From: Pristiophorus japonicus
Taxonomy: Eukaryota
Reading direction: 5' to 3'
Assembly (NCBI RefSeq): GCF_044704955.1
Contig: NC_091982.1
Location: 164,114,001 to 164,178,000 of the forward strand
Length of the DNA: 64,000 bases
Part shown: piece after piece, positions 23,776 through 64,000 of the stretch
Position numbering within the stretch: position 1 is the stretch's first letter
How the letters are laid out: every line of letters begins with the position of its first letter
The notes under the pieces: model-generated
Databases searched by the model: none
Told to the model about the DNA's origin: nothing
The model's input: the letters and a program-made list of their open reading frames with translations, nothing else
Translations under genes and position numbers: made by a program

Positions 23776-24416
23776 ATGGGGTAGAAGCCCAACGAAACGT
23801 GACCCGCCCCAGAATTCACCTCCAAACAATGCCGCTATGCTCATTTTAAGCCAAAAAAAATCACTAAAATAGCACGTGAATTCAGGGCACAAAATTTAAC
23901 TAGCATTTTTCCCCTTCACTTTTCAGGCCTGTTTTCCAAATACGTTCTCCCGGCATGGAGGCTTGTCTGCTGGAAGCACTGATTGACAATCGCACGCTCG
24001 TTCCCCACGATTTTAAGGAGCACGTGTTTGCAAATTCAGACCTTGTGTGTGCGGTGATGAGGAGGGGTCGATCAGTAAAGATTTTTAATTGGAAATTCAT
24101 CACCGGCAAAGCACAGCTCAGATCTCGAGCCCTCGCCTCACCGCTGCCAGATTCCCATCCAAACCACAACTGATTTTGCACTTGGTAAAAAGTCGCAACT
24201 CAAAGTACTTCCCAGAATACTTGGCAACCAGAAGTAACATGTGACAACCATCACCCACTCCAGCACCAGAGCTCCTGTTTCAAATCACCCATTTATGTCT
24301 CTAAGTGGGACAAGGATCAAAATACCACAGCTTCGCCTTCAAATCCTCAAAGGGACAGTGTCAAGAATAATCCTTTTTAACATAATTTCTTCCCTAATCG
24401 CATTTTTCAACTGCAG

Positions 24417-25991: not shown

Positions 25992-26357
25992 GTGAGTGCT
26001 TGGCCTAAAGGAGTGGGTGTGATCCCAAGCCTAGAAGTTGAAACCAACTGAAGTTAGCAAGTTCCAAAAGATTTGGGCACAATGAGGCTTAGTTGAGGCT
26101 GTGCTCCAATTTTCCGCCAAAAAATGATGATTTTTGTTGTGTAAAAAAATTATCGGAAACATTAGGAACAGGAGCCGGACATTCAGTCCCTTGGCTGATC
26201 TGCACCTCAAATCTATTTTCCTACCTTTGCTCCATATTCCTTGATACCCTTACCTAAAAAAAAATCAGTCTTGAAAGCTCTTAACTGTGCAGCTGAACTA
26301 GGTTTTCACTTGCACTGTTGGCTTTTATAACACCCAATTCATACTGTTTATGGGTAT

Positions 26358-29300
26358 TATTGTACTTATAATAAATGGTCAGACCGAGTGCTGTGTGTAA
26401 TGAGCAAGTGTGACCTTGGTTTCTTTATTGTAGTTCCAGAGTGCAGGTACCTCGTGGGTGGCCTGCTTATATACTGTACTCCCAAGGGATGCTGGGATCC
26501 CTTGGGATTCCAACGGGTAGGCCCTCTGGTGGACTGGTGTGATGCAGGTTACAAGGTTACAAGGGGTTAAATACATAACATCACTCCCCTGTGAAATCAA
26601 CAATACACTTATTTACAAGGTGAGACGATCTGGGGCTTTGCGCTCACTTGTCGATCGTCTCGGTACAAATGTTGGTGTGGGTGGGTTGGTCAGTTCTTCA
26701 TTGGGCTGTTGGGCAGCTGGCCTTGCTGGGCTGCTGGGGATGATGAGCTGTTTCGTGGTCAACTGTGATGTCAGTTGCCACTTGTGTGTGTGTTGGAAGG
26801 TCAAAGTTGACGGTGTCCTCTTCCGGTTGTACATAGCTGTTGGTGAACCGCAGTTTAATTTGGTCCAAGTGTTTTCTGTGGGTTTGTTTATTGGTCAGTT
26901 TGACCTGAAATATCCTACTCTCCTCTTTGGCTGTGACTGTACCAGCATACCATTTGGGACCATGTCCATAATTGAGCACAAATATAGGATCATTGATCTC
27001 AATATCGCGTGACAAGTTTGCGCGGTCATGGTACACACTCTGTTGATGCCGCTTGTCCTCCACGTGATCATGTAGATCAGGGTGGACCAGAGAGAGCCTT
27101 GTTTTAAGTGCCCTTTTCATGAGCAGTTCGGCTGGGGGAATCCCTGTGAGTGAGTGGGGTCTAGTGCGGTAGCTGAGCAGTACTCGGGACAACCGGGTCT
27201 GCAGGGAGCCTTCCGACACATGTTTCAAGCTTTGCTTGATGGTCTGAACTGCCTGTTCTGCCTGGCTGTTGGATGCGAGCTTGAACGGGGCAGATGTGAC
27301 ATGTTTGATCCCGTTGCAAGTCATGAACTCCTTGTTAAGATTTGTAAACAATTTTTTTCATTTCTGCACACTGTGCAAGACTTTCCTCATACTTCTGTAT
27401 CCATTCCAAAGTTATGGTTTTCTCATGAGCAACCTCTTGTTTTACAACTAGAATTGCAGCATCCATGTCTTTCTGGCTATATTTTAGCACCTCAACAATA
27501 GCATCCTCAGCAGGAACTGTAGCTGATGTGAAATCAGCTACTGGATCAATTAGATTTGATTGCCCATCAGGGATCAAGGTAGCGATATTAGCCTTGTGAA
27601 GCACGGACCATTGTCGTTGACTAGGACATCGGGCAGGCCATGCATGGCAAAAATAGCTCTTAGACTTTCAACGGTGGCCATGGACGTACTTCCAGACATT
27701 ATTGCACATTCAATCCACTTTGAGTAAGCATGTACGATAACCAAAACATTTTGCCTAGGAATGGGCCTGCATAGCCTACATGGATCCTCGACCAAAGTTT
27801 GGATGGCCAGGACCATAAACTTAGCGGTGCCTCTCTGGGTGCATTGCTCAACTGAGAGCAAGCGTTGCACTGGCGTACACATGACTCTAAATCTGAGTCA
27901 ATGCCTGGCCACCACACGTGGGATCTGGCTATGGCTTTCATCATCACGATGCCTGAGTGGGTGCTGTACAGTTCCCCAATAAATGTGTCTCTGCCTTTCT
28001 TGGGCAAGACCACATGATTGCCCCACAAGAGACAATCCGCCTGCAGGGACAGCTCAGCTTTGCGTCTGTGGAATGGCTTAATCACTTCCTGCATCTCCAC
28101 TGGGACACTGGACCAGCTCCCATGGAGGACAGTTTTTTTATCAGGGACAGTAAAGGATCCTGGCTGGTCCAGGTCCTGATCTGGCGGGCCGTAATGGGGG
28201 ATTTCTCATTCTCAAATGCCTCCATGACCATAAGCAAGTCCACTGGCTGTACCATTTCCACCCCGGTGGTGGGCAATGGTAGCCGACTGAGAGCATCTGC
28301 GGAGTTCTCTGTGCTCGGTCTGTGGTGAATTACATAGTTGTATGCCGACAGCGTGAGCGCCCATCTTTGGATGCGGGTAGAGGCATTGGTATTGATCCCT
28401 TTGCCCTCCGAGAATAGCGATATGAGCGGTTTGTGGTCAGTTTGAAGCTCAAACTTGAGGCCAAACAAGTACTGGTGCAAGTTTTTTACCCCGTAAACGC
28501 ACGCCAAAGCCTCTTTTTCAACCATGCTGTAGGCCCTTTCGGCCTTGGACAAGCTCCTGGATGCATACACAACTGGTTGCAAAATTCCCGATTCATTAGC
28601 CTATTGTAACACACAACCGACCCCGTATGACAACGCATCGCAAGCTAACACTAGTCATTTACATGGTTTATACAGAACAAGCAGTTTGTTGGAACACAGT
28701 AAATTTCTGGTTTTCTTAAAGGCAGCCTCTTGTGAATTCACCAATACCCAGCCACCTCCCTTGCGCAGTAGCGCTTTCAGGGGTTCTAACAGGGTGCTTA
28801 ACCCAAGTAGGAAATTACCGAAGTAGTTAAGGAGTCCCAGGAACAACCACAGCTCCGTCATGTTCCATGGTCGTGGTGCGTTCTTGATGGCCTCCGTTTT
28901 GGCGTTGGTGGGTCTGACGCTGTCTGCTGCAATTCTCCTTCCTAAGAATTCGACGTCCTGTGCCAGGAAAACACACTTCGAGCGTTTCAACCTGAGCTCC
29001 ATGCGACTGACTAAGAACCTCCTCCAGATTCTTCAAGTGTTCCATGGTGTCCCGACCTGTAACCAATATGTCGTCGTAGAAGACCACTGTACAAGGAACC
29101 GACTTTAGCAGGCTTTCCATGTTCTGCTGGAAGATCGCTACAGCTGACTAAATCCCGAACGGGCATCGGTTGTAAATAAACAGACCTTTGTGCATGATGA
29201 TGCAGGTGAGGCCTTTCGAAGACTCCTCCAGTTCCTGCATCATGTAGGCCGAGGTCAGGTCCAGCTTGATGAATGTCTTCCCTCCAGCCAGGGTCGCAAA

Positions 29301-31135
29301 TAGGTCGTCTGCCTTGAGTAGCAGGTACTGGTCCTGCAGCGAAAAATGGTTAATTGTTACTTTATAGTCACCACAAATTCTAACTGTACCATCCTCGAGT
29401 ACCGGAACAATCGGACTGGCCCAGTCATTGAACTCCACCGGTGCGATGATGCCTTCACGTTGCAGCCTATCCAGCTCAATTTCCACTTTTTCACGCATCA
29501 TGTACGCTACCGCCTGAGCTTTGTGGTGGATGGGTCGCTTACCGAGAACCAAATGGATCTACACTTTCACCCCCGAGAAACTTCCAATATCTGGCTCAAA
29601 TAATGAAGGGAATTTGCTGAGAACCTGGGTGAATGCGGTGTCGTCAACTGACGAGAGCACTCGGATGTCGTCCCAGTTCCAGCAGATTTTCCCCAGCCAG
29701 CTTCTGCCAAATAACATGGGGCCATCCTCTGGCACAATCCACAGCGGGAGTTCATGTACTGTTCCATCACAGGAGACTTTGACTTCAGCATTGCCAATTA
29801 CAGGGATTAGTTCCTTTGTATAAGTCCTTAGTTTGGTGTGAATGAGCCTGAGCTTGGGCCTGTGTGCCTTCTTCCCCCACAGCCTGTCGAAGGCCGTTTT
29901 ACTCATTCTGGACTGACTTGCCCACGTGTCCAGCTCCATAGACATTGGAATATCGTTCAGTTCAACTTTCAACATTATTGGTGGGCATTTTGTTGTGAAC
30001 GTGTGTATCCTGCACACCTCTGCCTCCTCCATTCGAGTTTCCAATTCCGTCTGATCCACTGTGGACCAATCTTCCTCTGCAACGTGGTGGTTTGCAGGGT
30101 TTGCAGGGTTTGCAGCTCACCTGCACATTTGTTGGAGGTGTCCCATTGTTCTGCAACCATTGCACGCATAGTGCTTAAAGTGGCATTGATGGGGCCGATG
30201 ATCTCCTCCACAATGCCAACAAGGTGTTAACTGCCTCGCATTAACAGATGATGGCAGACTCTGGGTCAATTGAGGTCAGGCCACAGCAACCGGTGTGTAC
30301 ATTCTGCCCTGTACATTTCTGCTCAAAACCGACGTTACTTTATGCACAGTACTGGCCGAAACATCTTTGTTCTGCGAAATCTGCTTAATGTTGTTGCTGG
30401 TGGACGTAAATGGCTTTAATCAGATTCGGAGTTTCTACAGTCAACAGTTTGCGAAGGATTGTCTCAAGTCCGATGCCCAGAACAAAAAAGTCTCTTAGCA
30501 TTTGTTCTAGGAATCCCTCAAACTCACATTGTCCTGCAAGGTGCCTTAGTTCGGTGACATAGCTCGCCACTTCCTGGCCCTCCGATCGTTGACATGTGTA
30601 GAACTGATATCTCGCCATCAAAACACATTCCTTAGGATTTAGGTGCTCCCAGACCAGCGTGCACAGTTCTTCGTAGGATTTCTCTGTTGGTTTAGCCGGG
30701 GCCAGGAGATTCTTCATGAGGCCATAGGTTGTGGCTCCACAGACAGGAGGATTGCCCTTCGTTTGGTCGCGTCCTCGTCCCCTTCCAGCTTGTTGCTACG
30801 AAGTATTGGTCGAGTCTCTCCACGAAGACCTCCCAATCGCCCCTCTCCGAGAACTTCTCCAGTATGCCGATTGTTCTTTGCATTTTCGTGTGGTTCGTTA
30901 CCTCGTCGCCAATTGTTGTACTTATAATAAATGGTCAGACCGAGTACTATGTGTAATGAGCAAGTGTGACCTTAGCTCTTTTATTGTAGTTCCAGAGTGC
31001 AGGTACCTCGTGGGTGGCCTGCTTATATACTGTATTCCCAAGGGATGCTGGGATCCCTTGGGACTCCAACAAGTAGGCCCTCTGTGGACCGGTGTGATGC
31101 AGGTTACAAGGTTATAAGGGGTTAAATACATAACA
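26358..31135 (-). mobile_element. Full-length decayed Mag-type Gypsy element
   Basis: LTRs 30914-31135 and 26358-26580; 5-bp TSD GGTAT; PBS TGGCGACGAGG; PPT GGGGAGTGA; gag-PR-RT-RH-IN with many frameshifts. Confidence 0.95.
27335..27594 (-). pseudogene. TACC3: TACC3-like fragment (start of TACC coiled-coil domain) inserted in Gypsy integrase
   Basis: EDAIVEVLKYSQKDMDAAILVVKQEVAHEKTITLEWIQKYEESLAQCAEMKKIV matches the remembered TACC3/maskin signature VLKYSQKDMDAA; absent at the homologous site of the 38897-43635 element. Confidence 0.8.
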
Positions 31136-31609
31136 GGTATGATCCCAATAACTTAAATCTGCTGAATCTGCAAATTCCAGTTGATCCAGATGTTAAGAGC
31201 TCTCAATGCAGAATTTTCTGCCTAGAACTAATTGGTTTCAATTCAGTGCGCACATACAGTTACACAGAAAGGAAATACAAATGTCTTGATATATTACTCA
31301 TTAATGCGACAGATGTGTGTCTCCATTCAAATTCACTCATTACCGAGTAACCAACCCCACTTGTGTTGGCGCTGAGTTTATATCATAAAACCTCAAAACT
31401 GTTGCCAGCAAGAATCACTGCCCCTGATAGGGATGGGATTCGAGTGGAGAATTCAGCAAGGTTTACTCTGGGTGATCATAAATACCAGATTTATTCCAAC
31501 ACAAACTTTGGCAATGTAATCGGTTCATGTGGAGCAGGGACCTGTTGAGCTGAATGCTTTGTTTGTTTCTGTGCTGTAAATTCTGTGGAATTCTATGTAA
31601 ACAGAGTTT

Positions 31610-36900: not shown

Positions 36901-39900
36901 AGGAGTGGGGAATCTGTGGAGTTGGCTTTACCTACCCGCTCTCTGCCAATCACGCCTCCCCACAGGACTGTGTCTTTGCCGACCCTGGTATTAAAATCAC
37001 CCAGGAGGATCACTTTGTCGCCCATGGGGACGCGGGACAAGGATGTCTCGAGGTTGGAATAAAAACCCTCTTTAGCCTCATCCATTGCATCGAGTGTAGG
37101 GGCGTACGCACTGATGACTGTGGCGCATTAGTTCCGAGATAACACTGGCACCTGCTTGACTATGTCATCGTCCGAGCCAGGGATCACAAGGATGTGCACA
37201 TCACCCGCTCCATGACAGGAGCTGACGACTGCTGGATGGACCACCGCTGAAACCGATCCATCATCAACATTAACATTGCCCCAAAGCAGAGGGGACAGCA
37301 GAAGCAGTTCCTCAAAAAAATTAATGCCGGGGCACTTAGAGACCCAGCTAAGAGAGCCCTATACAGCCAGCACCTCACAGCCAATCTGTGGTGCTGAATG
37401 ACCCTGAGATGCTGAATGCCCATAGCACTTGGTCTACCCTCCAGGCCTCTATAACCAGTGCCTGTGAAGAGACACTTGGTCACTCAACCAGAAAACATCA
37501 GGACTGGTTCAATGAAAATGATCAGGTGATCGAAGAACTAATAGGCCGTAAACGCAAAGCATTTCTGAGCAACAAGCAACAACGCAACTCGGGAGCTGCA
37601 AAACAACATTACAGACAGCTCAAGGCTCAGGTTCAACAAAAAACCTGGAACTTAAAGAGCAGGTGGTGGATGGAGAAAGCACAGGAGATATAACAACTGG
37701 CCGACAGCCACGATATGCGAGGATTCTTCGCTGAAGTCAAGCCCACCTACGGTCCAAACTCCCAAGACTCCACCCCACTCCTGGCCGAGAACGGGGAAAC
37801 ATTCATCAAGGACACCGAGGCTGTCAGGGCCCAATGGAAGGAGCACTTTGAAGATATCCTCAATCGAGACTCTGCCTTTGACTCGAGTGTTCTTGACTCC
37901 ATCCCGCAGCATGCGACCCGCCACCAACTCAGTGAAACTCTAATGTTGCACGAGGTCGGCAAAGCCATAAAACAGCTCAAGAATAACAAGGCTACGGGTG
38001 CGGATGGAATCCCTGCTGAGGCGCTAAAGTATGACGGAGAGGCGCTGTTGGCGCGGATATATGACCTCATCTTTCTCACCTGGAGAGAAGAGAGCATGCC
38101 GGGAGATCTGAGAGATGCAGTGATTGTGACCATTTTTTTAAAAGGGGACAAGTCCGACTGTGGCAACTACAGGGGAATCTCACTGTCATAGCCACTGGGA
38201 GAGATGTCGCTCGAGTTCTCCTCAATCGTCTTCTCCCTGTGGCCGAGGAGCTCCTCCCGGAATCACAATGCGGATTTCGTACCCTACGGGGCACAACAGA
38301 CAAGATCTTTGCAGCGCGACAGTTGCAGGACAAATGCAGGGAGCAGCGCGAGCCCTTATACATGGCCTTTTTCGATCTTACAAAGGCCTTTGACACTGTC
38401 AACTGTGAGGGTCTATGAAGCGTCCTCCTCCGTTTCGGATGCCGCCAAAAGCTTGTCAACATGCTTCGCCTGCTTCACGGTGACATTCAGGCTGTGATCC
38501 TTACCAATGGATCCGTTGGAGACCCAATCCATGTCCAGACCAGGGTCATACAGGGCTGCATCTTCGCTCTAACCCTCTTCTCAATCTTCCTCGCCACCAT
38601 GCTCCACCTCACAATCAACAAGCTCCCCGCTGGAGTGGAACTAAACTACAGAATCAGTAGGAAGATGTTTAACCTACACCGCCTCCAGGCCAGGTCCAAG
38701 ATCACCCAACCTCTGTCGTTGAGCTGCAGTATGCGGACGACGCCTGCGTCTGTGCACATTCAGAGGCTGAACTCCAGGATATAGTCAAAGTATTTACTGA
38801 GGCATATGAAAACATGGGCCTTACGCTTAACATCCATCAGACAAAGATCCTCCACCAGCCTGTCACCGCCGCACAGCACTGCCCTCCAATCATCAATGTA
38901 AAGTCTTTACTCTACAGCATGAAACCACACGAGGCACATTCCAGGGACAAGGCCACACTGTGACCTTAACTCTTTATTACAGGACTCCAGAAATGATGAC
39001 CCTGTGTGGGACCTCCCTTTATATACCTGGGAGATCAGGTAAGGAGTGTCTCCCACAAGTGGTCAAGATGTGCAACTGAGTTGAGTGTATACAGTAATAC
39101 AGTGGTGTTACATTGTAGTTACAAACATGACATCACCTTCACCCCCCCCAAAGTCTTGCTGGGATCATAGGTTTAGTCTTTCAGGTGGTCTACACTCCCT
39201 CGTGAAGCACCGCAGTTGGGGCTCTGGTTGTTGGACACTGACGTAAGTGTCTGTCACCTGTGATGATCCCGGCCTGTCCAGGCTGACCTCAGGGACTGTG
39301 CATTCTTCTGATTGCTCTTGTTGCTCGTTCACTGGCGGTGGTGTGAGCTCCATCTCATGGTCTTCTTCAGGTTCCTCCGTGTCCATGCTGAACCTTTTTT
39401 TTACTTGGTCCAGATGCTTACGGCATATCTGGCCATTGTTGAGTTTTACCACGATGACCCTATTCCCCTCTTTGCCAATTACAGTACCCTCAAGCCATTT
39501 GGGCCCCATGGCGTGATTGAGGACAAATACAGGGTCATTTATTTCTATACATCTCCCCCTTGAATTACGGTCATGGTACTCATTTTGTGACTTGTGCTTG
39601 CCCTCAACTATATTGGTCAGGACTGGAAGGATGAGGGACAACCGAGTTTTGAGAGTCCATTTCATGAGTAGCTCTGCGGGCGGGACCCCCGTGAGCGAGT
39701 GCGGGCGGGATCTATAGGCCAGCAGGAGGCGTGATAGGCGGCATTGTAGTGAGGGTCCTGGAATCCTGAGCATACCTTGCTTAATGATTTGGACTGCCCC
39801 TTCTGCCTGGCCATTGGAGGCCGGCTTGAACGGCATAGTCCTGACGTGGTTGATGCCATTGCCCGACATAAACTCCCGGAATTCATAGCTCGTGAAACAC

Positions 39901-42900
39901 GGGCCATTATCACTAACCAGGATGTCCAGCAAGCCATGGGTTGTAAAGATCACACGTAGGCTTTCCACAGTGGTGGATGACCGTGCATGAATTCAGGATG
40001 ATGCACTCGATCCATTTCGAGTACGCATCTACTACAATGAGGAACATCTGACCCATTAACGGGCCCGCGTAGTCAATGTGAATGCGTGACCATGGCTTGG
40101 TGGGCCAGGGCCACGGGCTGAGCGGGACCTCCCTGGGGGCATTACCCAGCTGGACACAGGTCGTGCACCTGCGAACACAGTGTTCCAGGTCTCAATCAAT
40201 TCCAGGCCACCAAACATGTGACCTGGCAATGGCCTTCATCAGCACAATGCCTGGATGCTCACTGTGGAGTTCCCTGATGAATGCTTCCCTGCCCCTCTGG
40301 GGCATGACTACCCAGCTGCCCCATAGTAGGCAGTCGGCTTGGATGGAGAGCTCATCCATCCGCCTGTGGAACGGTCTGACCTCCTCAGGGCATGCTCCAT
40401 GTGCGGGCGCCCAATCCCCAGTCAGGACACATTTCTTAATCAAGAATAGGAGGGGATCTCTGTTTGTCCAGATTTTGATCTGGCGGGCTGTGATGGGGGA
40501 GCCTGCACTGTCAAAGGCATCGACAGCCATGACCATTTCAGCGCTTTGCTCAGCTGCCCCCTCGGTGGTGGCCAGTGGAAGCCTGCTGAGCGCGTCAGCT
40601 AGCCAGTGCCGGATAGAGTAGTCATAAGCAGCTAGCGTGAGAGCCCACCGCTGTATGCGAGCTGATGCGTTGACATTGACAGTCTTGTTGTCTGACAACA
40701 GAGATGTGAGTGGCTTGTGGTCTGTCTCTAATTCAACTTTCCTACCGAAGAGGTACTGATGCATTTTTTTTACACCATAGACACAAGCAAGCGCTTCCTT
40801 CTCGACCATCCCATATCCCCGTTCTGCTTGAGACAACGACCTGGAGGCATAAGCCACAGGTTGTAGCTGACCCTCAGCATTACCCTGCTGCAACACGTAC
40901 CCAACCCCATAGGACGATGCATCACATGTCAGAACTAAACATTTACAGGGGTTGTACAGGGTCAACAACTTATTTGAACAAAGTAGGTTTCATGCCCGGT
41001 CGAAAGCCCGTTCCTGACAGTCCCCCCAAAACCAATCGCAACCCTTACACAAGAGCACGTGTAGCGGCTCCAACAACATGCTCAAGTTCGGCAGAAAGTT
41101 CCTGAAATAGTTCAACAGTCCCAGGAATGAACGCAGCTCCGATGTGTTGCAGGGCCTGGGTGCTCGTTGAATCGCCTCTGTTTTGGATTCAGTGGGCCGA
41201 ATCCTATCTGCAGCAACCCTCCTGCCCAGAAACTCAACCTCGGGAGCTAAGAACGTGCATTTAGACTTCTTGAGTCGCAGGCCTACCCGGTCCAGTCGGC
41301 GTAGCACCTCCTCCAGGTTGTGGAGGTGTTCCTCGGTGTCTCGACCCGTGATGAGGATGTTGTCCTGGAATACGATCGTTGCCGGAATGGATTTAAGCAG
41401 GCTTTCCATGTTACGTTGAAAAATCGCAGCCACTGATCGAATGCCAAACGGGCACCTGTTATATGCAAACAGTCCCTTGTGCGTGGTGATGATGGTCAGT
41501 TGTTTGGATTCGTCGGCCAGTTCCTGGGTCATATAGGCTGCAGTGATGTCCAATTTGGTGAACAGCTTGCCGCCTGCCAGCGTGGCGAAAAGGTCTTCCA
41601 CTGTTGGGAGCGGGTATTAGTCTTGTTGGGACACCCGATTGATGATGGCCTTGTAGTCGCCACAGATCCTGACAGAGCCATCCGCTTTTAGAACGGGAAC
41701 GATGGGGCTCGCCCAGTCGCTGAATTCAACAGGCGAGATGATGCCCTCTCGCAACAGCCAGTCCAATTCGCTCTCGATTTTTTCCCGCATTACATATGGC
41801 ACCACTCTGGCTTTGTGGTGCATTGGCCTGGCATCCAGGGTGAAGTGTATCACTACTTTAGTGCCTTTGAAAATCCCGACGCCCGGTTGTAATAATGACT
41901 TGAATTGTTGTAGGACTTGTGGGCACGAACTTCGCTCCACCGAGGACATTGCATGAACATCCCCCCATTTCCAGTTCATCTCAGCTAACCAGCTCCTCCC
42001 CAACAGTGTGGGACCATTGCCCGGGACAATCCAGAATGGCAGCCGGTTCACTAACCCATTGTGTGTGATAGCCATCATTGCACTGCCTAGCACCGGAATG
42101 ATTTCTTTGGTGTAAGTCCGTAATTATGTCTCAATACGTTCTAATTTGGGTCCACTGGCTTTGAGTGGCCATAGCTTCTCAAATTGCTGAACGCCCATGA
42201 GTGACTGGGTGGCCCCAGTGTCCAGCTCCATGCGCACTGGGATACCGTTCAACAAAACCCTCATCATCATTGGTGGCATTTTGGTGTATGAACTGTGAAT
42301 ATTCGCCGCATGGACCCGCTAAACCTCGGCGTCCATCGATTTGCCCCAAAAGTCATCCTGCCTCACAGAACCCTCTTCTGGTCCCTCTGTCTCATATATT
42401 AGTCTGGTTGCAGGTTTTCTGCACATTCGAGCTAAATGGCCACTGAGATTGCAGTTTCTGCAGACAAACTGTTGGAATCTGCAAGATCTGGCTGAGTGTT
42501 TTCCCCCACACCTCCAGCATGAGTTAAAGTTTCCATTGTTGGGGACAAAGGGACTATGACCAGGAATTCCACGCTGACTGTCCCTTTGACTGATCTTAAG
42601 TATCCTATTAGTGAGTGTCAATGGCCCCATCCCGGGCCACATTGTCCACTGTGATGGCGTGAACATCCGTTCAGCCTGCCATTGTCTCTGTTGAGGTCCT
42701 GCTCTGGGGTCTATTGCTGCCTGGTAAATGTCAGACTGCCCCTGCCTGCCTGCGGGGCTCTGAGCCGCATTGACGATGTTGACTCCCTGATCCATCACCG
42801 CGTTAGAGGCAGAATTGTGCTCATAAATCATTCTCGTCTCTTTCTCCCCCGCCATGAAAGTTTGAGCTAACAATGCTGCCGCTTCCAAGGTCAAGTCCTT

Positions 42901-44452
42901 GGTCTCAATTAACTTGCGAAAAATTCCCGCATGACCGATACCCTCGATAAAGAAGTCCCTTCGCATCTCCCCACTGCAGGCGTCTGTGAACTTACAGAGG
43001 CTGGCCAAACGCCAGAGGTCCGCTACAAAATCCGGTATGCTCTGTCCTTCACGACGTCGGTGGATGTAGAATCTGTGTCGAGCCATGTGTATGCTGCTCA
43101 CCAGTTTGAGGTGCACCCCGATTAATTTGCTAAGCTTTTCAAAGGTTTTGTCCGACGGCTTTTCGGGTGCCAGTAAGTCTTTCATGAGCGCGTAAGTCTT
43201 TGGACCGCAGCTGGTCAGGAGATGAGCCCATCGCTTGTCAGCCGCTACATCCCCAGCCAGTCTTTAGTAATGAAGCTTTGCTGAAGCCTCTCGACAAAAT
43301 CGTCCCAGTCTTCCCCAACACAGTACTGTTCCTCTGTGCTACCGGTGGCCATTCTCATGGGTCGTGAATTCCCGTTTCTCGTCGCCAATGTAAAGTCCTT
43401 ACTCTACAGCATGAAACCACACGAGGCACATTCCAGGGACAAGGCCACTCTGTGACCTTAACTCTTTATTACAGGACTCCAGAAGTGATGACCCTGCGTG
43501 GGACCTCCCTTTATATATCTGTGTGATCAAGTAAGGAGTGTCTCCCACAAGTTCACCCCCTGTGGTCAAGGTGTGCATCTGAGTTGAGTGTATACAGTAA
43601 TACAGTGGTGTTACATTGTAGTTACAAACATGACAATCAAGATCCATGGTGCGGCCATGAACAACGTGGACCATTTCCCATATCTCAGGAGTCTCATATC
43701 AACAAAGGACAGACATTGATGCGGAGATTCAGCATCGTCTCCAGTGTGCCAGTGCAGCTTTCAACCATCTGAGGAAAAGAGTGTTTGAAGACCAGGCCCA
43801 CAAATCTACCACCAATCTCATGGTCTACAGGGCTATAATAATACCCGCCCTCCTGTATGGATCTGAGGTATGGACGTTGAGGTATTGAAGGCACCTCAAG
43901 TCGCTGGAGATATATCACCAACGATGTCTCCGCAAGATCCTGAAAATCCCCTGGGAGGACAGGTGCACCAACATCAGTGCCCTCGACCAGGCTAACATCT
44001 CCAGTATTGAAGCACTGACCACACTCAATCAGCTTCGCTGGGCAGGCCACATAGTTCGCATGCCAGATACGAGATTCCCTAAGCAAATGCTTTCTGCGGA
44101 GCTCATTCATGGTAAACGAGCCAAAGGAGGACAGCGGAAACGCCTCCTGGTAAAGTGCAACATCACCACTGACACCTGGGAGACCCTGGCCGAAGACCGC
44201 CCGAGGTAGCGAAAGTACATCCGGGAGGGCGTTGAGCTCTTCGAGTCTCAACGCAAAGAGAATGAAGAGGCCAAGCGCAGGCAGCAGAAGGAGCGCATGG
44301 CAAACCAGCCCCACCGACCCCTTCCCTTGACGAATGTCTGTCCCACCTGTAACAAGGTCTGTGGCTCTCATATCGGACTGTTCAGCCATCAAAGAACTCA
44401 CTTTGGGAGTGGAAGCACGTCCTCCTTGATTCCGAGGGACTGCCTATGATGT
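36901..44452 (+). mobile_element. RTE LINE with inverted 5' segment, interrupted by a Gypsy element
   Basis: Endonuclease piece on the minus strand (36901-37140), then + strand HWHLLDY through RT to the GGGACTGCCTATGAT tail; TSD GTGTTAGTC (36892-36900 and 44453-44461). Confidence 0.9.
38897..43635 (-). mobile_element. Full-length Mag-type Gypsy element
   Basis: LTRs 43389-43635 and 38897-39132 (11-bp deletion in the 3' LTR); 5-bp TSD ATCAA; PBS TGGCGACGAGAA; G-rich PPT; gag with two CCHC knuckles, RT, RNase H and integrase, disrupted. Confidence 0.96.
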
Positions 44453-59550: not shown

Positions 59551-62500
59551 TGTAATGTCTGTAAGCTTGTAATGTTTGTAGTGCCACACTGTGGATGTGG
59601 ACGTATTGTGTACTGCAAGTGCAGGGTTAATAAAAAACAGAACTCGGCAGATTTTCCCAAGACTTCCGAGAGAGCTGCCTGTCATGTTAGGAAGCTGTTT
59701 TTGCTGTGCTCTGTGAAGATATCACATTTGGCAACTGAGATGGGATTTTTCGGATGATTTAAAGCTTAAATTTTGTTGTTCAAGGATTCAGCCAGCCGAC
59801 AGAGAGACTTTGGAAGTTTCTGTCTTTGGAAAAAGCTACAAAATCCGAGATAAAATAGAGCACATGGTGTGAACAGCTAGAGATTAAAATGGCAGCACCC
59901 ACAGGTGTATTGGGACATTTGGGGGAATATAGACACGGCCGGGAACGTTTTAAAGCATATGTGGATTGGCTAGAATTGTATTTCATTACAAATAACATAA
60001 TCGAAGTTCCAGACAATGCAGTCCAGAACCAGGCTGTTTTGGAATGTAAGAAAGCGATCTTCTTATTGGAGGCAGGCCGGCATTATATGACACTTTTGTA
60101 AACCTGCTTGTGCCTGACGAGCCAAAGGAGACAACGGTTTAAGAGATTTTAATGAAGCTCGAGCACACTATAAACCCAAACCGTTAGAAATTGCTGAAAG
60201 CTATCGTTTCGGGATTCAGAATAAAAAGACTGATGATTGTATCAGTGATTACATCGTTGCATTAAAAAAGCTATCGATGCACTGTAATTTTAGAAACTTT
60301 CAAAAGCGAGCATTACGGGATAATTTTGTTTGTGGGGTGAAAAATGATGTGATCAGAAGGAAGCTATTGATGATAGATGACTTGACTTTTGAGATTGCTT
60401 GTCAGACAGCGAGGTCGATGAGAATGGCCGAACAATATTCCCGAGAATTAAATAATGATTACGGTCATCAGTCAACCGAGGTAAATCACCTGCAGGTTCA
60501 AAGTAAATGACGGGCATGGCCGAAAGTCTCAGAAACTGGAAATTCTACCAAAGCATCGAAGTCGTGCTATAGGTGCCTGGGACAACACATTGCTCAAAGT
60601 TGTCCATACGTGAAGGCAGAGTGTTTCTTCTGCAGAAAGACTAGGCATCTTGCAAAGGCATGCCGACTGATGGGTAAACCAGTTTTTAAAGCTATGAGTC
60701 CAGCATTCAAAGCCAAGAGTAGAAATCCAAAGAGACTACATAGCTTGGAAGAACAACAACAGGACGAGGAGATGTTAGAGTTACACATCATCAGGAGCAC
60801 GACGTTAACGGACAGCGATTCGGAAAGCATCAAAATCCACATAGATGTTACGGGATTCAAGCTACCAATGGAAATTGACTCGGGTGCCTCCGTGAGTGTA
60901 GTACCGGAGTCACTGTACCTCGACAAATTGCGTGATTTACAACTGGAAAAATCTAAGATAGAGCTGCAAGGCTACTCGGGAGAGAAAATTCCTGTGGTAG
61001 GTCATTTCACCGTACCAGTGAAATATAAAGATCAATTTCAGAACTTGCCTCTAATAATAGTGAAAGGAGACAAGACTGCTTTACTAGGAAGAAATTGGTT
61101 GAGCTCACTGAAGCTGGATTGGAGTAAGATTTTCTGTGTGGAAGCGAGATTTTCATCAACGGATGAGGTAATCAAGAAGTATCCGAAGGTGTTCTGCGAA
61201 ACGGGCAGTCCAATCCAAGGCTTCAAGGCGAGTGTCAGGGTACAGAAGAACGCTAGATCGGTTTACTACAAGCCACGTTCGGTACCATATGCACTCAAGG
61301 AGAAAGTTGAGCAAGAACTCAAAAGACTAGAGACTGAGAACACTATTTGTAAGATAGATCGATGTAATTGGGCTACACCCATTGTTGTTGTACCTAAGTC
61401 CGATGGTAAGGTAAGATTGTGTGGTGATTATAAAGTAACCGTAAACCAGGTTCTAGAGGGTAATGTCCCCAATATATTGCCGAATATAGAAGATTTGTTC
61501 ACAACACTGACAGGTGGTCAGATCTTCTCAAAACTGGATCTTACGAATGCTTACTTACAGCTTGAACTAGATGAGGAGTCGAAGTCATGTTTGACTATAA
61601 ATACTCATCTAGGCCTATATCAATTTAATAGGCTACTGTTTGGAGTGTCTTTTGCCCCTGCCATATTCCAAGGGGTGATGAACCAGATTTTGCAAGGTAT
61701 TGAAGGGGTAGTATGTTACTTGGATGACATACTAATTTCAGCACCAAATAGGCAAATTCAGAATAACATATTGAATGAAGTCCTCAAACGGCTAGAGAAG
61801 CACACAATACGAGTGTCTGCTTGTAAGTGTGAGTTATTTAAAAACTCAGTGGAGTACTTAGGGTACAGAGTAGACAAAGGTGGTTTGAATCCAACCATGG
61901 AAAAATTGGATGCAATTAGAAATGCACCCACTCCCAGGAATGTCACTGAACTTCGATCCTTCTTGGATCTTTTGAACTATTATGGGAAGTTCATACAAAA
62001 TTTGGCTACAGTATTACATCCACTGAATGAACTATTGAAAAAACAGGTCCATTGGAAGTGGTCAAAAGAATGCGATACAGCATTCAAGGAGTGTAAAAGC
62101 AAATTGGTAGAGAGCACCATGTTACTTCACTATGACATATCTAAGGAGATTAAGCTAGCATGTGATGCCTCTCCATATGGAGTTGGGGCAGTAATCTCTC
62201 ATGTATTAAGTAGTGGGGAGGAAAGACCAATTGCTTTTGCTTCATGCACTCTCAGTGCCAGTGAGAGTAATTAGGCGCAAATTGAAAGGGCAGCTTTGGC
62301 ATTAATATTTGGGGTCAAGAAGTTTCACAAATACTCGTATGGTCGTAAGTTTACCATCATTACGGACCATAAGCCCCTAACAGCAATCCTCCATCCAAAG
62401 TCCCCAGTTCCAACATTAGCTGCAGCCTGAATGCAGAGATGGGCTTTGATTTTGTCAGCATATACATATGATATTGAATACAGACGATCAGCTGTACACA

Positions 62501-64000
62501 GTAATGCTGATGCAATATCTAGATTGCCTTCCCCATCACAAGTTACACCCGATAGGGAAGAAGCGTTTTATTTTTCATACATTGATGAACTGCCAGTCAC
62601 AGCTGAAGAGATTGGTAGAGCAACCAAACGTGACCCAGTGATGTCAAAGTTTTGTGAGTATATTGCAAATGGATGGCCAAACCAGGTAACAGACAAAGAT
62701 ACACATCCATTCTTCATTCGTAGGAATGAATTATCAGTCGATAAGGATTGTATCATGTGGGGTGCAAGAATGGTTATACCAAATAAATTCAGGTCCAAAT
62801 TATTAGGAGACCTCCATGACCAGCTCCTGGGAATGTACTTGACCAAGAGCTTTGCACGCAGTTATTTATGGTGGCCAGGTCTTGATAAAGATATAGAGTA
62901 CATCGTAAGTCAGTGTACGGCATGTCAATCGGTAAGCAAGCAACCACCACCAGTACCATTACAGCCATGGAAATGGCCTCCCAGGGTGTGGCAAAGGCTA
63001 CATATTGATTTTGCTGAGTTAGAAGGACAACAATTGTTCATTGTGATTGATAGCCATTCGAAGTGGCTTGAGGTGTTTCCAATGTGGAAAATAACAACAA
63101 GTAAAACTTTGGACATTTTACAAAAATTATTTTCTGCATTTGCCCTCCCTGAAGAAATTGTTTCGGATAATGGACCACAATTTTGTTCGGAAGAATTTGC
63201 ACAATTTACGAGCAAAAATGGTGTGAAACATACCAAGATTCCACCATACCTTCCTTCTTCGAATGGTGCAGCAGAGCGCACTGTACAAATTGTAAAACAT
63301 GCCCTCATAAAACAAATGTTAGATCCAAAACCAAGGAAACGACAGTTGTCATTGGATCACAAATTGGCTAATTTTTTGATTACATTTCGAAATACTCCTC
63401 ATACAACTACTGGTGGAACACCGCAGAGTTGTTTCTCAAACGACAGCCACGAACCAGATTCTCGTTGTTAAAGCCAAATTTGGCACAGTCCGTAGAAGAG
63501 GCACAATTAAGACAGAAAGAGAATCATGATAAAGGTAGAGTAAAAGAGAGAAGTGTGAAATTAAACCAGAAGGTGAGAGTGAAGAACCATCACCATAAAT
63601 GGTTAAAGTGGTTACCAGGAAGAGTGGTGAAGATATGTGGTTCTCGCACATATTTGGTAAAGATGTTTGATAATGGACAGGTTAGGTTTGTTCATATTGA
63701 TCATATTTTACCTATAGACATGGAAGGAGTTGAAGGTGGGAATGATTCAATTATTTGTGATTCATCAGATAGTTTTGATATACCAGTAGCAAATCCTAAA
63801 TCCAATGTACTGGAAACAATTCCAGGAGAGAATCAGAATGAAAGTCTGAGTTTAAGTCAGGAAAACAAAGAGCCTGAATTTAGAGTCAGTTCAAATGAAA
63901 ATCAAGGAAATTCCATGGAGGAAAACATTCCTCAGGATGAGCCTCAAATGAGTTGAGATTCAACACCATGTTTGGAAGGTTCTGTTCGACAGCGAAGGTA
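59551..64000 (+). mobile_element. Mag-type Gypsy element of a distinct AT-rich family; 3' LTR beyond the window
   Basis: 5' LTR TGT...ACA at 59551-59726; PBS-like TGGCAACTGAGATGGGA. Confidence 0.92.
59889..63956 (+). pseudogene. Gypsy gag-pol with stops and frameshifts
   Basis: CYRCLGQH..C and CFFCRKTRHLAKAC, EIDSGAS, CYLDDILI, CDASPYG, TDHKPL, LHIDFAE...SDNGPQF...NGAAER. Confidence 0.93.

What the first reader, a model, noticed from the sequence alone, without database searches (positions are those of the whole stretch)
27335..27594. Intron-less TACC3-like fragment captured in sense inside a Gypsy integrase
Seen: about 260 AT-rich bp replace a few codons between DNGPCFT and KEFMTCNG of integrase, with no poly(A) and no TSD, on the element's strand, with an unbroken frame encoding ...AIVEVLKYSQKDMDAAI...EWIQKYEE...EMKKIV. 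Established: this resembles the TACC domain start of TACC3/maskin, an abundant oocyte mRNA. From memory, TACC genes have introns near KQE|V and EMK|KIV, so the piece looks spliced. Inference: double template switch onto co-packaged host mRNA during reverse transcription (LTR-mediated gene capture), or an RNA-templated break repair patch. Transcribed with the + strand host intron it would be antisense to TACC3.
Basis: partly seen in the sequence, partly recalled or inferred. Interest (0 to 1): 0.8.

Follow-up and report, generated by a model that had tools for sequence, protein, structure and literature searches.

The report
Spliced TACC3 patch inside shark retrotransposon
A 258-base piece copied from the spliced messenger RNA of the cell-division gene TACC3 sits inside an old, broken retrotransposon in a shark genome; it most likely patched a chromosome break after the retrotransposon had landed, a known but rarely datable kind of event.

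Summary
Window 27335-27592 (258 bp, minus strand) replaces 9 bp of a Gypsy integrase. 243 nt match the spliced TACC3 gene on another contig: two whole exons plus 10 nt of a third, with introns of 5,549 and 101 bp removed exactly. It is single-copy, has no poly(A) or TSD, and read-derived contigs bridge both junctions. RNA origin is therefore shown.

The element is 2.4-3.0% diverged per lineage (LTRs differ at 13 of 222 sites). The insert differs from TACC3 at 2 of 243 sites, both within 8 nt of one end, and 235 nt are identical (P 0.005-0.10, depending on assumptions). Junction microhomology is 0-1 nt, with 12 nt of filler, and the element is otherwise continuous.

Best reading (about 0.7): a germline double-strand break in a resident, already decaying element was patched with TACC3 cDNA (RMDR / class 2 TSIP type). 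The fragment is out of frame with the integrase. No host gene was found to support the antisense idea. New member of a known kind; modest interest.

The parts
26353..26357 (.). 5-bp target-site duplication of the Gypsy element (left copy)
   Evidence: identical to 31136-31140
26358..26580 (-). 3' LTR of the Gypsy element
   Evidence: 13 of 222 aligned sites differ from the other LTR, all transitions, 11 of 214 outside CpG
26698..27334 (-). integrase, part downstream of the insert (from KEFMTCNG)
   Evidence: collinear with sister copies; no Pfam hit for this ORF
27335..27592 (-). whole 258-bp insert replacing 9 bp of integrase
   Evidence: junctions bridged by DNA-run contigs
27335..27346 (-). 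12-nt filler at the insert's 3' end; 7 of 12 bases collinear with the continuation of exon C; no significant local template
   Evidence: 1528 of 20000 shuffles reach 7/12; 2619 of 5000 reach the longest exact local match (7 nt)
27347..27356 (-). first 10 nt of TACC3 exon C (source G000:C2:43436703-)
   Evidence: 10 of 10 identical
27357..27433 (-). TACC3 exon B, whole, 77 nt (source C2:43436525-43436601)
   Evidence: 77 of 77 identical
27434..27589 (-). TACC3 exon A, whole, 156 nt (source C2:43430820-43430975; P0002 aa 662-713; skipped in isoform X2)
   Evidence: 154 of 156 identical, differences at 27584 and 27582
27590..27592 (-). 3 nt at the 5' junction; 2 of 3 match the last codon of the preceding TACC3 exon
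27593..28205 (-). integrase, zinc-binding and core part upstream of the insert (to DNGPCFT), frameshifted
   Evidence: (Integrase_H2C2 8e-10)
28082..30795 (-). gag, protease, reverse transcriptase and RNase H remnants, broken by frameshifts and stops
   Evidence: RT_RNaseH 5e-24; RVT_1, protease and gag hits weak, below cut-off
30914..31135 (-). 5' LTR of the Gypsy element
31136..31140 (.). 5-bp target-site duplication (right copy)

Best explanation
A Gypsy element integrated normally (LTR pair, 5-bp TSD) and decayed. Later a germline double-strand break fell in its integrase region and was repaired by end joining with a patch copied from spliced TACC3 mRNA, either as ready-made cDNA or by reverse transcription primed at the break. 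9 bp were lost, with untidy bases at both joints. Shown: spliced origin, intact distant donor, single copy, 9-bp loss relative to sister copies, no poly(A) or TSD. Statistically supported: the insert is younger than the element. Inferred: that a break was the cause, and the polarity (the 12 untidy bases would be the first made if the end at 27334 primed on the RNA). Unknown: the enzyme (LINE RT, Gypsy RT or a host polymerase). The patch is most likely a neutral relic: out of frame, ending in a stop.
For: Two introns removed exactly. No other processed copy to serve as a DNA donor: 5 of 5 matches explained, and a downstream exon has only 2 matches, gene and paralogue. Element age per lineage: 2.6% from LTRs (11/214 non-CpG), 2.4% (42/1753), 3.0% (70/2304, second sister set). 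Insert: 2 differences in 243 nt and none in 235 contiguous nt. One of the two is the state found in the paralogue and in Heptranchias, so it is probably a later change in the source gene. Counting both lineages, 7.9-9.2 differences are expected; P(<=2)=0.005-0.015 and P(<=3 in 246)=0.017-0.044. In the element's own flanks 0 of 212 overlapping 243-nt windows have <=1 change. Old changes reach to within 4 and 15 bp of the junctions (27331, 27607). Exact microhomology is 1 nt (5') and 0 (3') with 12 nt filler. These features match class 2 TSIPs (PMC5110952) and RMDR (PMC4516963). Tan et al. (PMC5131818, section 5) state that none of their Drosophila LTR-mediated cases looked like a continuous element interrupted by foreign sequence.
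Against: The age test depends on how end mismatches are counted. For the insert lineage alone, composition-adjusted, P(<=1)=0.03 but P(<=2)=0.10; Fisher for 2/243 against the flanks is 0.16; 18 of 212 windows have <=2. If the five tail mismatches are counted as neutral, 7/255 fits the LTR age (P=0.53-0.66), although such clustering occurred in 0 of 200000 uniform draws. The source-lineage rate (0.48 of intron rate) may be too high if the paralogue took most of the changes. Lying inside an LTR element in sense orientation is certain under capture but only chance under repair. Both ends lie near exon junctions, which Tan et al. noted for one switch-back site. This copy's pre-insertion allele was not observed.
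Confidence: 0.7

Rival explanations
1. LTR-mediated retroposition: the Gypsy reverse transcriptase switched to co-packaged TACC3 mRNA and back, so the chimera integrated as one unit and the insert is as old as the LTR pair.
For: Partial intronless copy, in sense, inside an element with both LTRs and a TSD, no poly(A). Tan et al. report such cases in zebrafish and chicken, and de novo bases at 3 of 29 Drosophila junctions. The lenient age tests do not reject it (P 0.07-0.16).
Against: 235 nt without a change where 5-7 are expected in the insert lineage alone (P 0.001-0.006). Likelihood ratio for a later event 4-26 when end mismatches are counted. Microhomology 0-1 nt against a median of 6 bp at 25 of 29 junctions in Tan et al. 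Return to within 9 bp of the departure point in a 4.8-kb element. No second copy: the 3' junction pattern matches once in the genome.
Confidence: 0.18
2. Hybrid route: a Gypsy-TACC3 chimeric cDNA was made later in a particle of a sister element and recombined by homology into this older resident copy (recalled from yeast Ty1 work; not read here).
For: It would explain location, sense orientation and young age together.
Against: It predicts young, sister-like flanks. With a sister set chosen away from the site, changes specific to this copy lie at 27278, 27319, 27331 and 27607, 27617, 27652, right beside both junctions.
Confidence: 0.05
3. Ordinary LINE-driven processed pseudogene (target-primed reverse transcription), internally primed or later trimmed.
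For: Retrocopies are common in cartilaginous fishes (14,081 reported) and track non-LTR content (bioRxiv 10.64898/2026.06.26.734816). An A-rich run lies at the exon B/C junction near the 3' end.
Against: No poly(A), no TSD, a deletion at the target, and the mRNA's 3' part is absent. LINE RT acting at a pre-existing break is part of the best explanation, not of this rival.
Confidence: 0.04
4. The insert is as old as the element, but its core has been kept identical to TACC3 mRNA by selection or RNA-templated conversion, as an antisense or small-RNA regulator of TACC3.
For: All mismatches lie at the ends and the core is perfect.
Against: End mismatch density (8 in about 23 nt) is far above 2.5% neutral decay, so the ends look junctional rather than aged. 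No host gene was found.
Confidence: 0.03

Closest known systems
[quoted passage not shown] 2015, PMC4516963
   Same: Internal, doubly truncated, spliced mRNA fragment (Pcnt, Inadl: several introns skipped) at a break, no poly(A); short sequences of unknown origin at some joints.
   Different: Those were CRISPR-induced breaks in mouse zygotes, often with 1-7 bp microhomology; their natural examples were MuERV-L pieces. This one is a natural host-mRNA patch in a shark, dated by the surrounding LTR element; the break itself is inferred.
Class 2 templated sequence insertion polymorphisms (TSIPs), PMC5110952
   Same: Patch from a distant intact donor; no TSD or poly(A); microdeletion and non-templated bases; cDNAs with spliced exons are among the known TSIP templates.
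   Different: Defined as human polymorphisms; whether this insert is polymorphic is unknown.
LTR-mediated retroposition, Tan et al. 2016, PMC5131818
   Same: Partial sense-strand retrocopy flanked by LTR-element sequence with both LTRs, no poly(A) or TSD of its own.
   Different: Here microsimilarity is 0-1 nt, only 9 bp are replaced, the element is otherwise continuous, no secondary copy exists and the insert appears younger than the LTR pair.
L1-type processed pseudogene
   Same: Intronless copy of a host mRNA on another chromosome.
   Different: No poly(A), no TSD, no mRNA 3' end, target deletion.

Membership tests
TACC3-derived retrocopy fragment | Matches exons of a parent gene elsewhere with introns removed at splice sites | tested here: met
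   Two introns (5,549 bp GC-AG, 101 bp GT-AG) removed exactly; 241 of 243 nt identical; follows the main gene at 20 of 21 sites that separate it from the paralogue
RMDR / class 2 TSIP (cDNA repair patch) | Donor distant and intact | tested here: met
   Donor exons present on contig C2
RMDR / class 2 TSIP (cDNA repair patch) | No TSD, no poly(A) | tested here: met
RMDR / class 2 TSIP (cDNA repair patch) | Microdeletion at the target | tested here: met
   9 bp relative to 25 of 29 and 25 of 29 sister copies; inferred from sisters, not from an empty allele of this copy
RMDR / class 2 TSIP (cDNA repair patch) | Microhomology or non-templated bases at the joints | tested here: met
   12 nt filler without significant local template, 3 nt at the 5' joint, 1 nt exact overlap
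RMDR / class 2 TSIP (cDNA repair patch) | Inserted into pre-existing chromosomal DNA (younger than its target) | tested here: inconclusive
   Favoured, P 0.005-0.10 by assumption; no empty allele seen
RMDR / class 2 TSIP (cDNA repair patch) | Polymorphic in the population; identity of the reverse transcriptase | not testable with these tools
   DNA runs with a high share came from one sample and are contigs only
LTR-mediated retroposition (Tan 2016) | Partial retrocopy flanked by LTR-element sequence, both LTRs present, sense strand | tested here: met
LTR-mediated retroposition (Tan 2016) | Microsimilarity at switch points (median 6 bp, 25 of 29 junctions) | tested here: not met
   1 nt and 0 nt exact overlap; Tan et al. 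also had de novo bases at 3 of 29 junctions
LTR-mediated retroposition (Tan 2016) | Part of the element's ORFs replaced, not a continuous element interrupted | tested here: inconclusive
   9 bp replaced, element otherwise collinear; the replaced lengths in Tan's Data Set 1 could not be read
LTR-mediated retroposition (Tan 2016) | Retrocopy as old as the LTR pair (logical consequence, my test) | tested here: not met
   0 of 235 and 2 of 243 differences against 2.4-3.0% per lineage; moderate strength
LTR-mediated retroposition (Tan 2016) | Co-transcription from the LTR; secondary copies | tested here: inconclusive
   One copy only; transcription not decidable from contigs
L1-type processed pseudogene | Poly(A) tail, TSD, intact mRNA 3' end | tested here: not met

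The most novel reading that the evidence does not exclude
The broken chromosome end primed directly on spliced TACC3 mRNA in trans and was extended by a host repair polymerase rather than a retroelement enzyme. Such heritable mRNA patches would then form a sizeable, datable class in large shark genomes that is being misfiled as LTR-mediated gene capture. The sequence cannot tell which enzyme acted, and only this one event was examined.
Probability: 0.12. Interest if true: 0.65.

Novelty: new member of a known kind. Interest (0 to 1): 0.36.

Why it matters
It is a natural, inherited record of mRNA sequence written into a vertebrate chromosome without poly(A) priming, in a lineage far from the mouse and human examples. 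The surrounding LTR pair gives a clock at the same locus, so capture during retrotransposition can be told from later repair. A locus that passes the surface test for LTR-mediated gene capture fails that clock at moderate strength. Applied genome-wide, the same test could estimate how much apparent LTR capture is really break repair. The fragment itself probably has no function.

Tried and rejected
Assembly artefact: rejected. DNA-run contigs bridge the 5' junction (X1 record 7, 27554-27639, 0 differences) and the 3' junction plus both splice junctions (X3 record 16, 27291-27578, 0 differences). X1 and X3 are one sample, possibly the assembly's own, so this is not independent population support.

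DNA-level capture from the gene or from another retrocopy: rejected. Paralogue as donor: rejected, 20 of 21 diagnostic sites follow the main gene.

Local template for the 12-nt filler: none above chance.

Integration hotspot at the site: one sister copy has a nested LTR element whose TSD ends at the same position. A pattern count found the nested form in 1 of 49 copies with that allele, the one already known. No hotspot shown.

Low divergence of the 3' flank in the first sister set (1 private change in 26986-27334): a selection artefact; the second set shows 5 in 27050-27334.

Host gene: Pfam on 32 long and 9 short ORFs gave only retroelement domains and weak hits. One exon-like ORF found no homologue. 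A crude splice-site scan gave nothing recognisable; its output was partly cut. Small exons may have been missed.

Expression: no RNA holder is listed as such. X5 and X7 contigs continue into neighbouring TACC3 exons, so they look like normal mRNA. No listed piece of theirs bridges a junction, but the table was cut; no evidence either way. Zygosity was not decidable from contigs.

PDB sequence search: no hit. Absolute dating: 7e-10 per generation (PMC10587355, abstract) would give about 4e7 generations for the element, which is not credible, so it was dropped. Earlier findings: none returned.

Full report
OBSERVATION. The window is G000:C6:164114001-164178000 of a 5.9-Gb genome. A Gypsy-type element lies on the minus strand, with LTRs at 26358-26580 and 30914-31135 and the same 5-bp duplication on both sides. 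Its gag, protease, RT, RNase H and integrase remnants are broken by frameshifts and stops. Between the integrase motifs DNGPCFT and KEFMTCNG lie 258 bp (27335-27592) that no sister copy of the first set has. The flanks are 9 bp apart in 25 of 29 sisters chosen on the 3' flank and 25 of 29 chosen on 28200-28400; two copies are in both sets. DNA-run contigs from one sample bridge both junctions without differences.

WHAT THE INSERT IS. Its translation hits Pfam TACC_C weakly (25.1 bits, cut-off 29.9) and is 99% identical over 80 aa to a protein labelled Pristiophorus japonicus TACC3 X1. In the genome it has 5 matches: itself, two exons of the gene on C2, and the same two exons of a tandem paralogue about 85 kb away. 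Base by base it is 3 nt, exon A whole (156 nt), exon B whole (77 nt), 10 nt of exon C, and 12 further nt. The 5,549-bp GC-AG intron and the 101-bp GT-AG intron are removed exactly at their splice sites. It follows the main gene at 20 of 21 sites that separate it from the paralogue. No other processed copy was found: a downstream exon matches only gene and paralogue, and the 3' junction pattern occurs once. The template was therefore spliced TACC3 mRNA, of the isoform that includes exon A (X2 skips it). The TACC frame is not the integrase frame and ends in a stop at the last three bases of the insert.

AGE. The LTRs differ at 13 of 222 sites, 11 of 214 outside CpG, or 2.6-2.9% per LTR. Changes specific to this copy in the internal flanks are 42 of 1753 non-CpG sites and 70 of 2304 with the second set. 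The insert differs from the gene at 2 of 243 sites, both within 8 nt of the 5' end, and 235 contiguous nt are identical. One of the two gives alanine as in the paralogue and Heptranchias, so it is probably a later change in the gene (inference). For the insert lineage alone, adjusted for base composition, 5.3 changes are expected: P(0 in 235)=0.006, P(<=1)=0.03, P(<=2)=0.10. Adding the source lineage (exon rate 0.48 of intron rate from the paralogue pair, possibly too high) gives P(<=2)=0.005-0.015, and P(<=3 in 246)=0.017-0.044 if the 5' triplet is counted; likelihood ratios for a later event are 4-26. Among 212 overlapping, non-independent 243-nt windows of the flanks, 0 have <=1 change and 18 have <=2. 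Against this reading: counting the five tail mismatches as neutral gives 7 of 255, which fits the LTR age. But that clustering arose in 0 of 200000 uniform draws, so I treat the tail as junctional. The insert is probably, not certainly, younger than the element.

JUNCTIONS. Exact overlap with the mRNA is 1 nt at the 5' joint and none at the 3' joint. The 12-nt tail matches the continuation of exon C at 7 of 12 positions (1528 of 20000 shuffles reach this) and has no local template above chance (2619 of 5000). Old copy-specific changes reach to 27331 and 27607, so no young conversion tract surrounds the insert. Unexplained: the 5' end falls within 0-4 nt of an exon junction and the 3' end 10-22 nt past one.

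MECHANISM. Best supported (0.7): a germline break in the resident element was repaired with TACC3 cDNA, or by synthesis on the mRNA primed from the break. Spliced origin, intact donor, single copy and small deletion are shown; the later date is statistically favoured; the break and the enzyme are inferred. Capture by template switching (0.18) explains location and orientation without chance, but needs an unusually clean insert, no microsimilarity and a return within 9 bp. Minor rivals: chimeric cDNA recombined into the resident copy (0.05), LINE target-primed insertion (0.04), a conserved antisense regulator (0.03). No host gene was recognised in the window, so the antisense argument is unsupported, though small exons could have been missed.

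COMPARISON. Ono et al. 2015 (PMC4516963; passages) found spliced Pcnt and Inadl fragments at CRISPR breaks in mouse zygotes. The TSIP review (PMC5110952; passages) defines class 2 by no TSD, no poly(A), microdeletion, microhomology and non-templated bases. Tan et al. 2016 (PMC5131818; passages, sections 5 and 10, part of Table S8) describe LTR-mediated retrocopies with a median 6 bp microsimilarity. In the S8 rows I saw, 5 of 11 zebrafish and 4 of 19 chicken retrocopies are classed LTR, and 4 of 11 and 10 of 19 'uncertain' (22 of 31 places per term shown). Their Data Set 1, with the replaced lengths, was too large to read. A 2026 preprint (10.64898/2026.06.26.734816; passages; supplements not seen) counts 14,081 retrocopies in cartilaginous fishes. 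PMC12065846 was seen only as a search listing; PMC10587355 as abstract and outline. The yeast Ty1 cDNA-recombination route and the oocyte abundance of TACC3/maskin are recalled. Nine literature searches listed no report of this locus or of a TACC3 retrocopy; the library lacks most subscription papers.

VERDICT. It works like an RMDR / class 2 TSIP patch and meets the sequence features tested; it fails the microsimilarity and equal-age tests for LTR-mediated retroposition. It is a new member of a known kind, probably without function. Its value is as a dated natural example and as a template for a genome-wide test. Interest 0.36.

Noticed in passing
L044:774 to L045:332 (G000:C8:172301773-172311231): A sister Gypsy copy carries a nested 9.5-kb LTR element of another family (LTRs differ at 9 of 267 sites) whose 5-bp TSD corresponds to window 27593-27597, ending exactly at the insert's 5' breakpoint. 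A pattern count found it in 1 of 49 copies with that allele, so no hotspot is shown.
   Followed up: yes
L012, L010, L011 (G000:C2:43.34-43.37 Mb): Tandem duplicate of at least the 3' half of TACC3 about 85 kb upstream of the main gene (exons 91-92% identical, intron blocks about 83%). The database protein P0003 matches the main gene's large exon at 99% but the duplicate's 3' exons at 96-100%, so it may be a chimeric gene model or reflect conversion.
   Followed up: partly
L007:477 and L010:436: The intron after TACC3 exon A uses a GC donor in both paralogues, and exon A is skipped in isoform X2 (P0020).
   Followed up: partly
window 38894-43635: A second LTR element on the minus strand (LTR pair 95-97% alike), 72% similar over about 1 kb to the element nested in L023.
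   Followed up: no
window 60511-63956: A third Gypsy element on the + strand with long open frames (587 aa protease-RT-RNase H, 346 aa integrase), apparently less decayed.
   Followed up: no
window 26358-26580 vs 30914-31135: All 13 substitutions between the two LTRs are transitions, 11 of them outside recognisable CpG sites.
   Followed up: no
window 23927-24074: Exon-like open frame on the + strand with a good acceptor site; no homologue found in two searches.
   Followed up: partly
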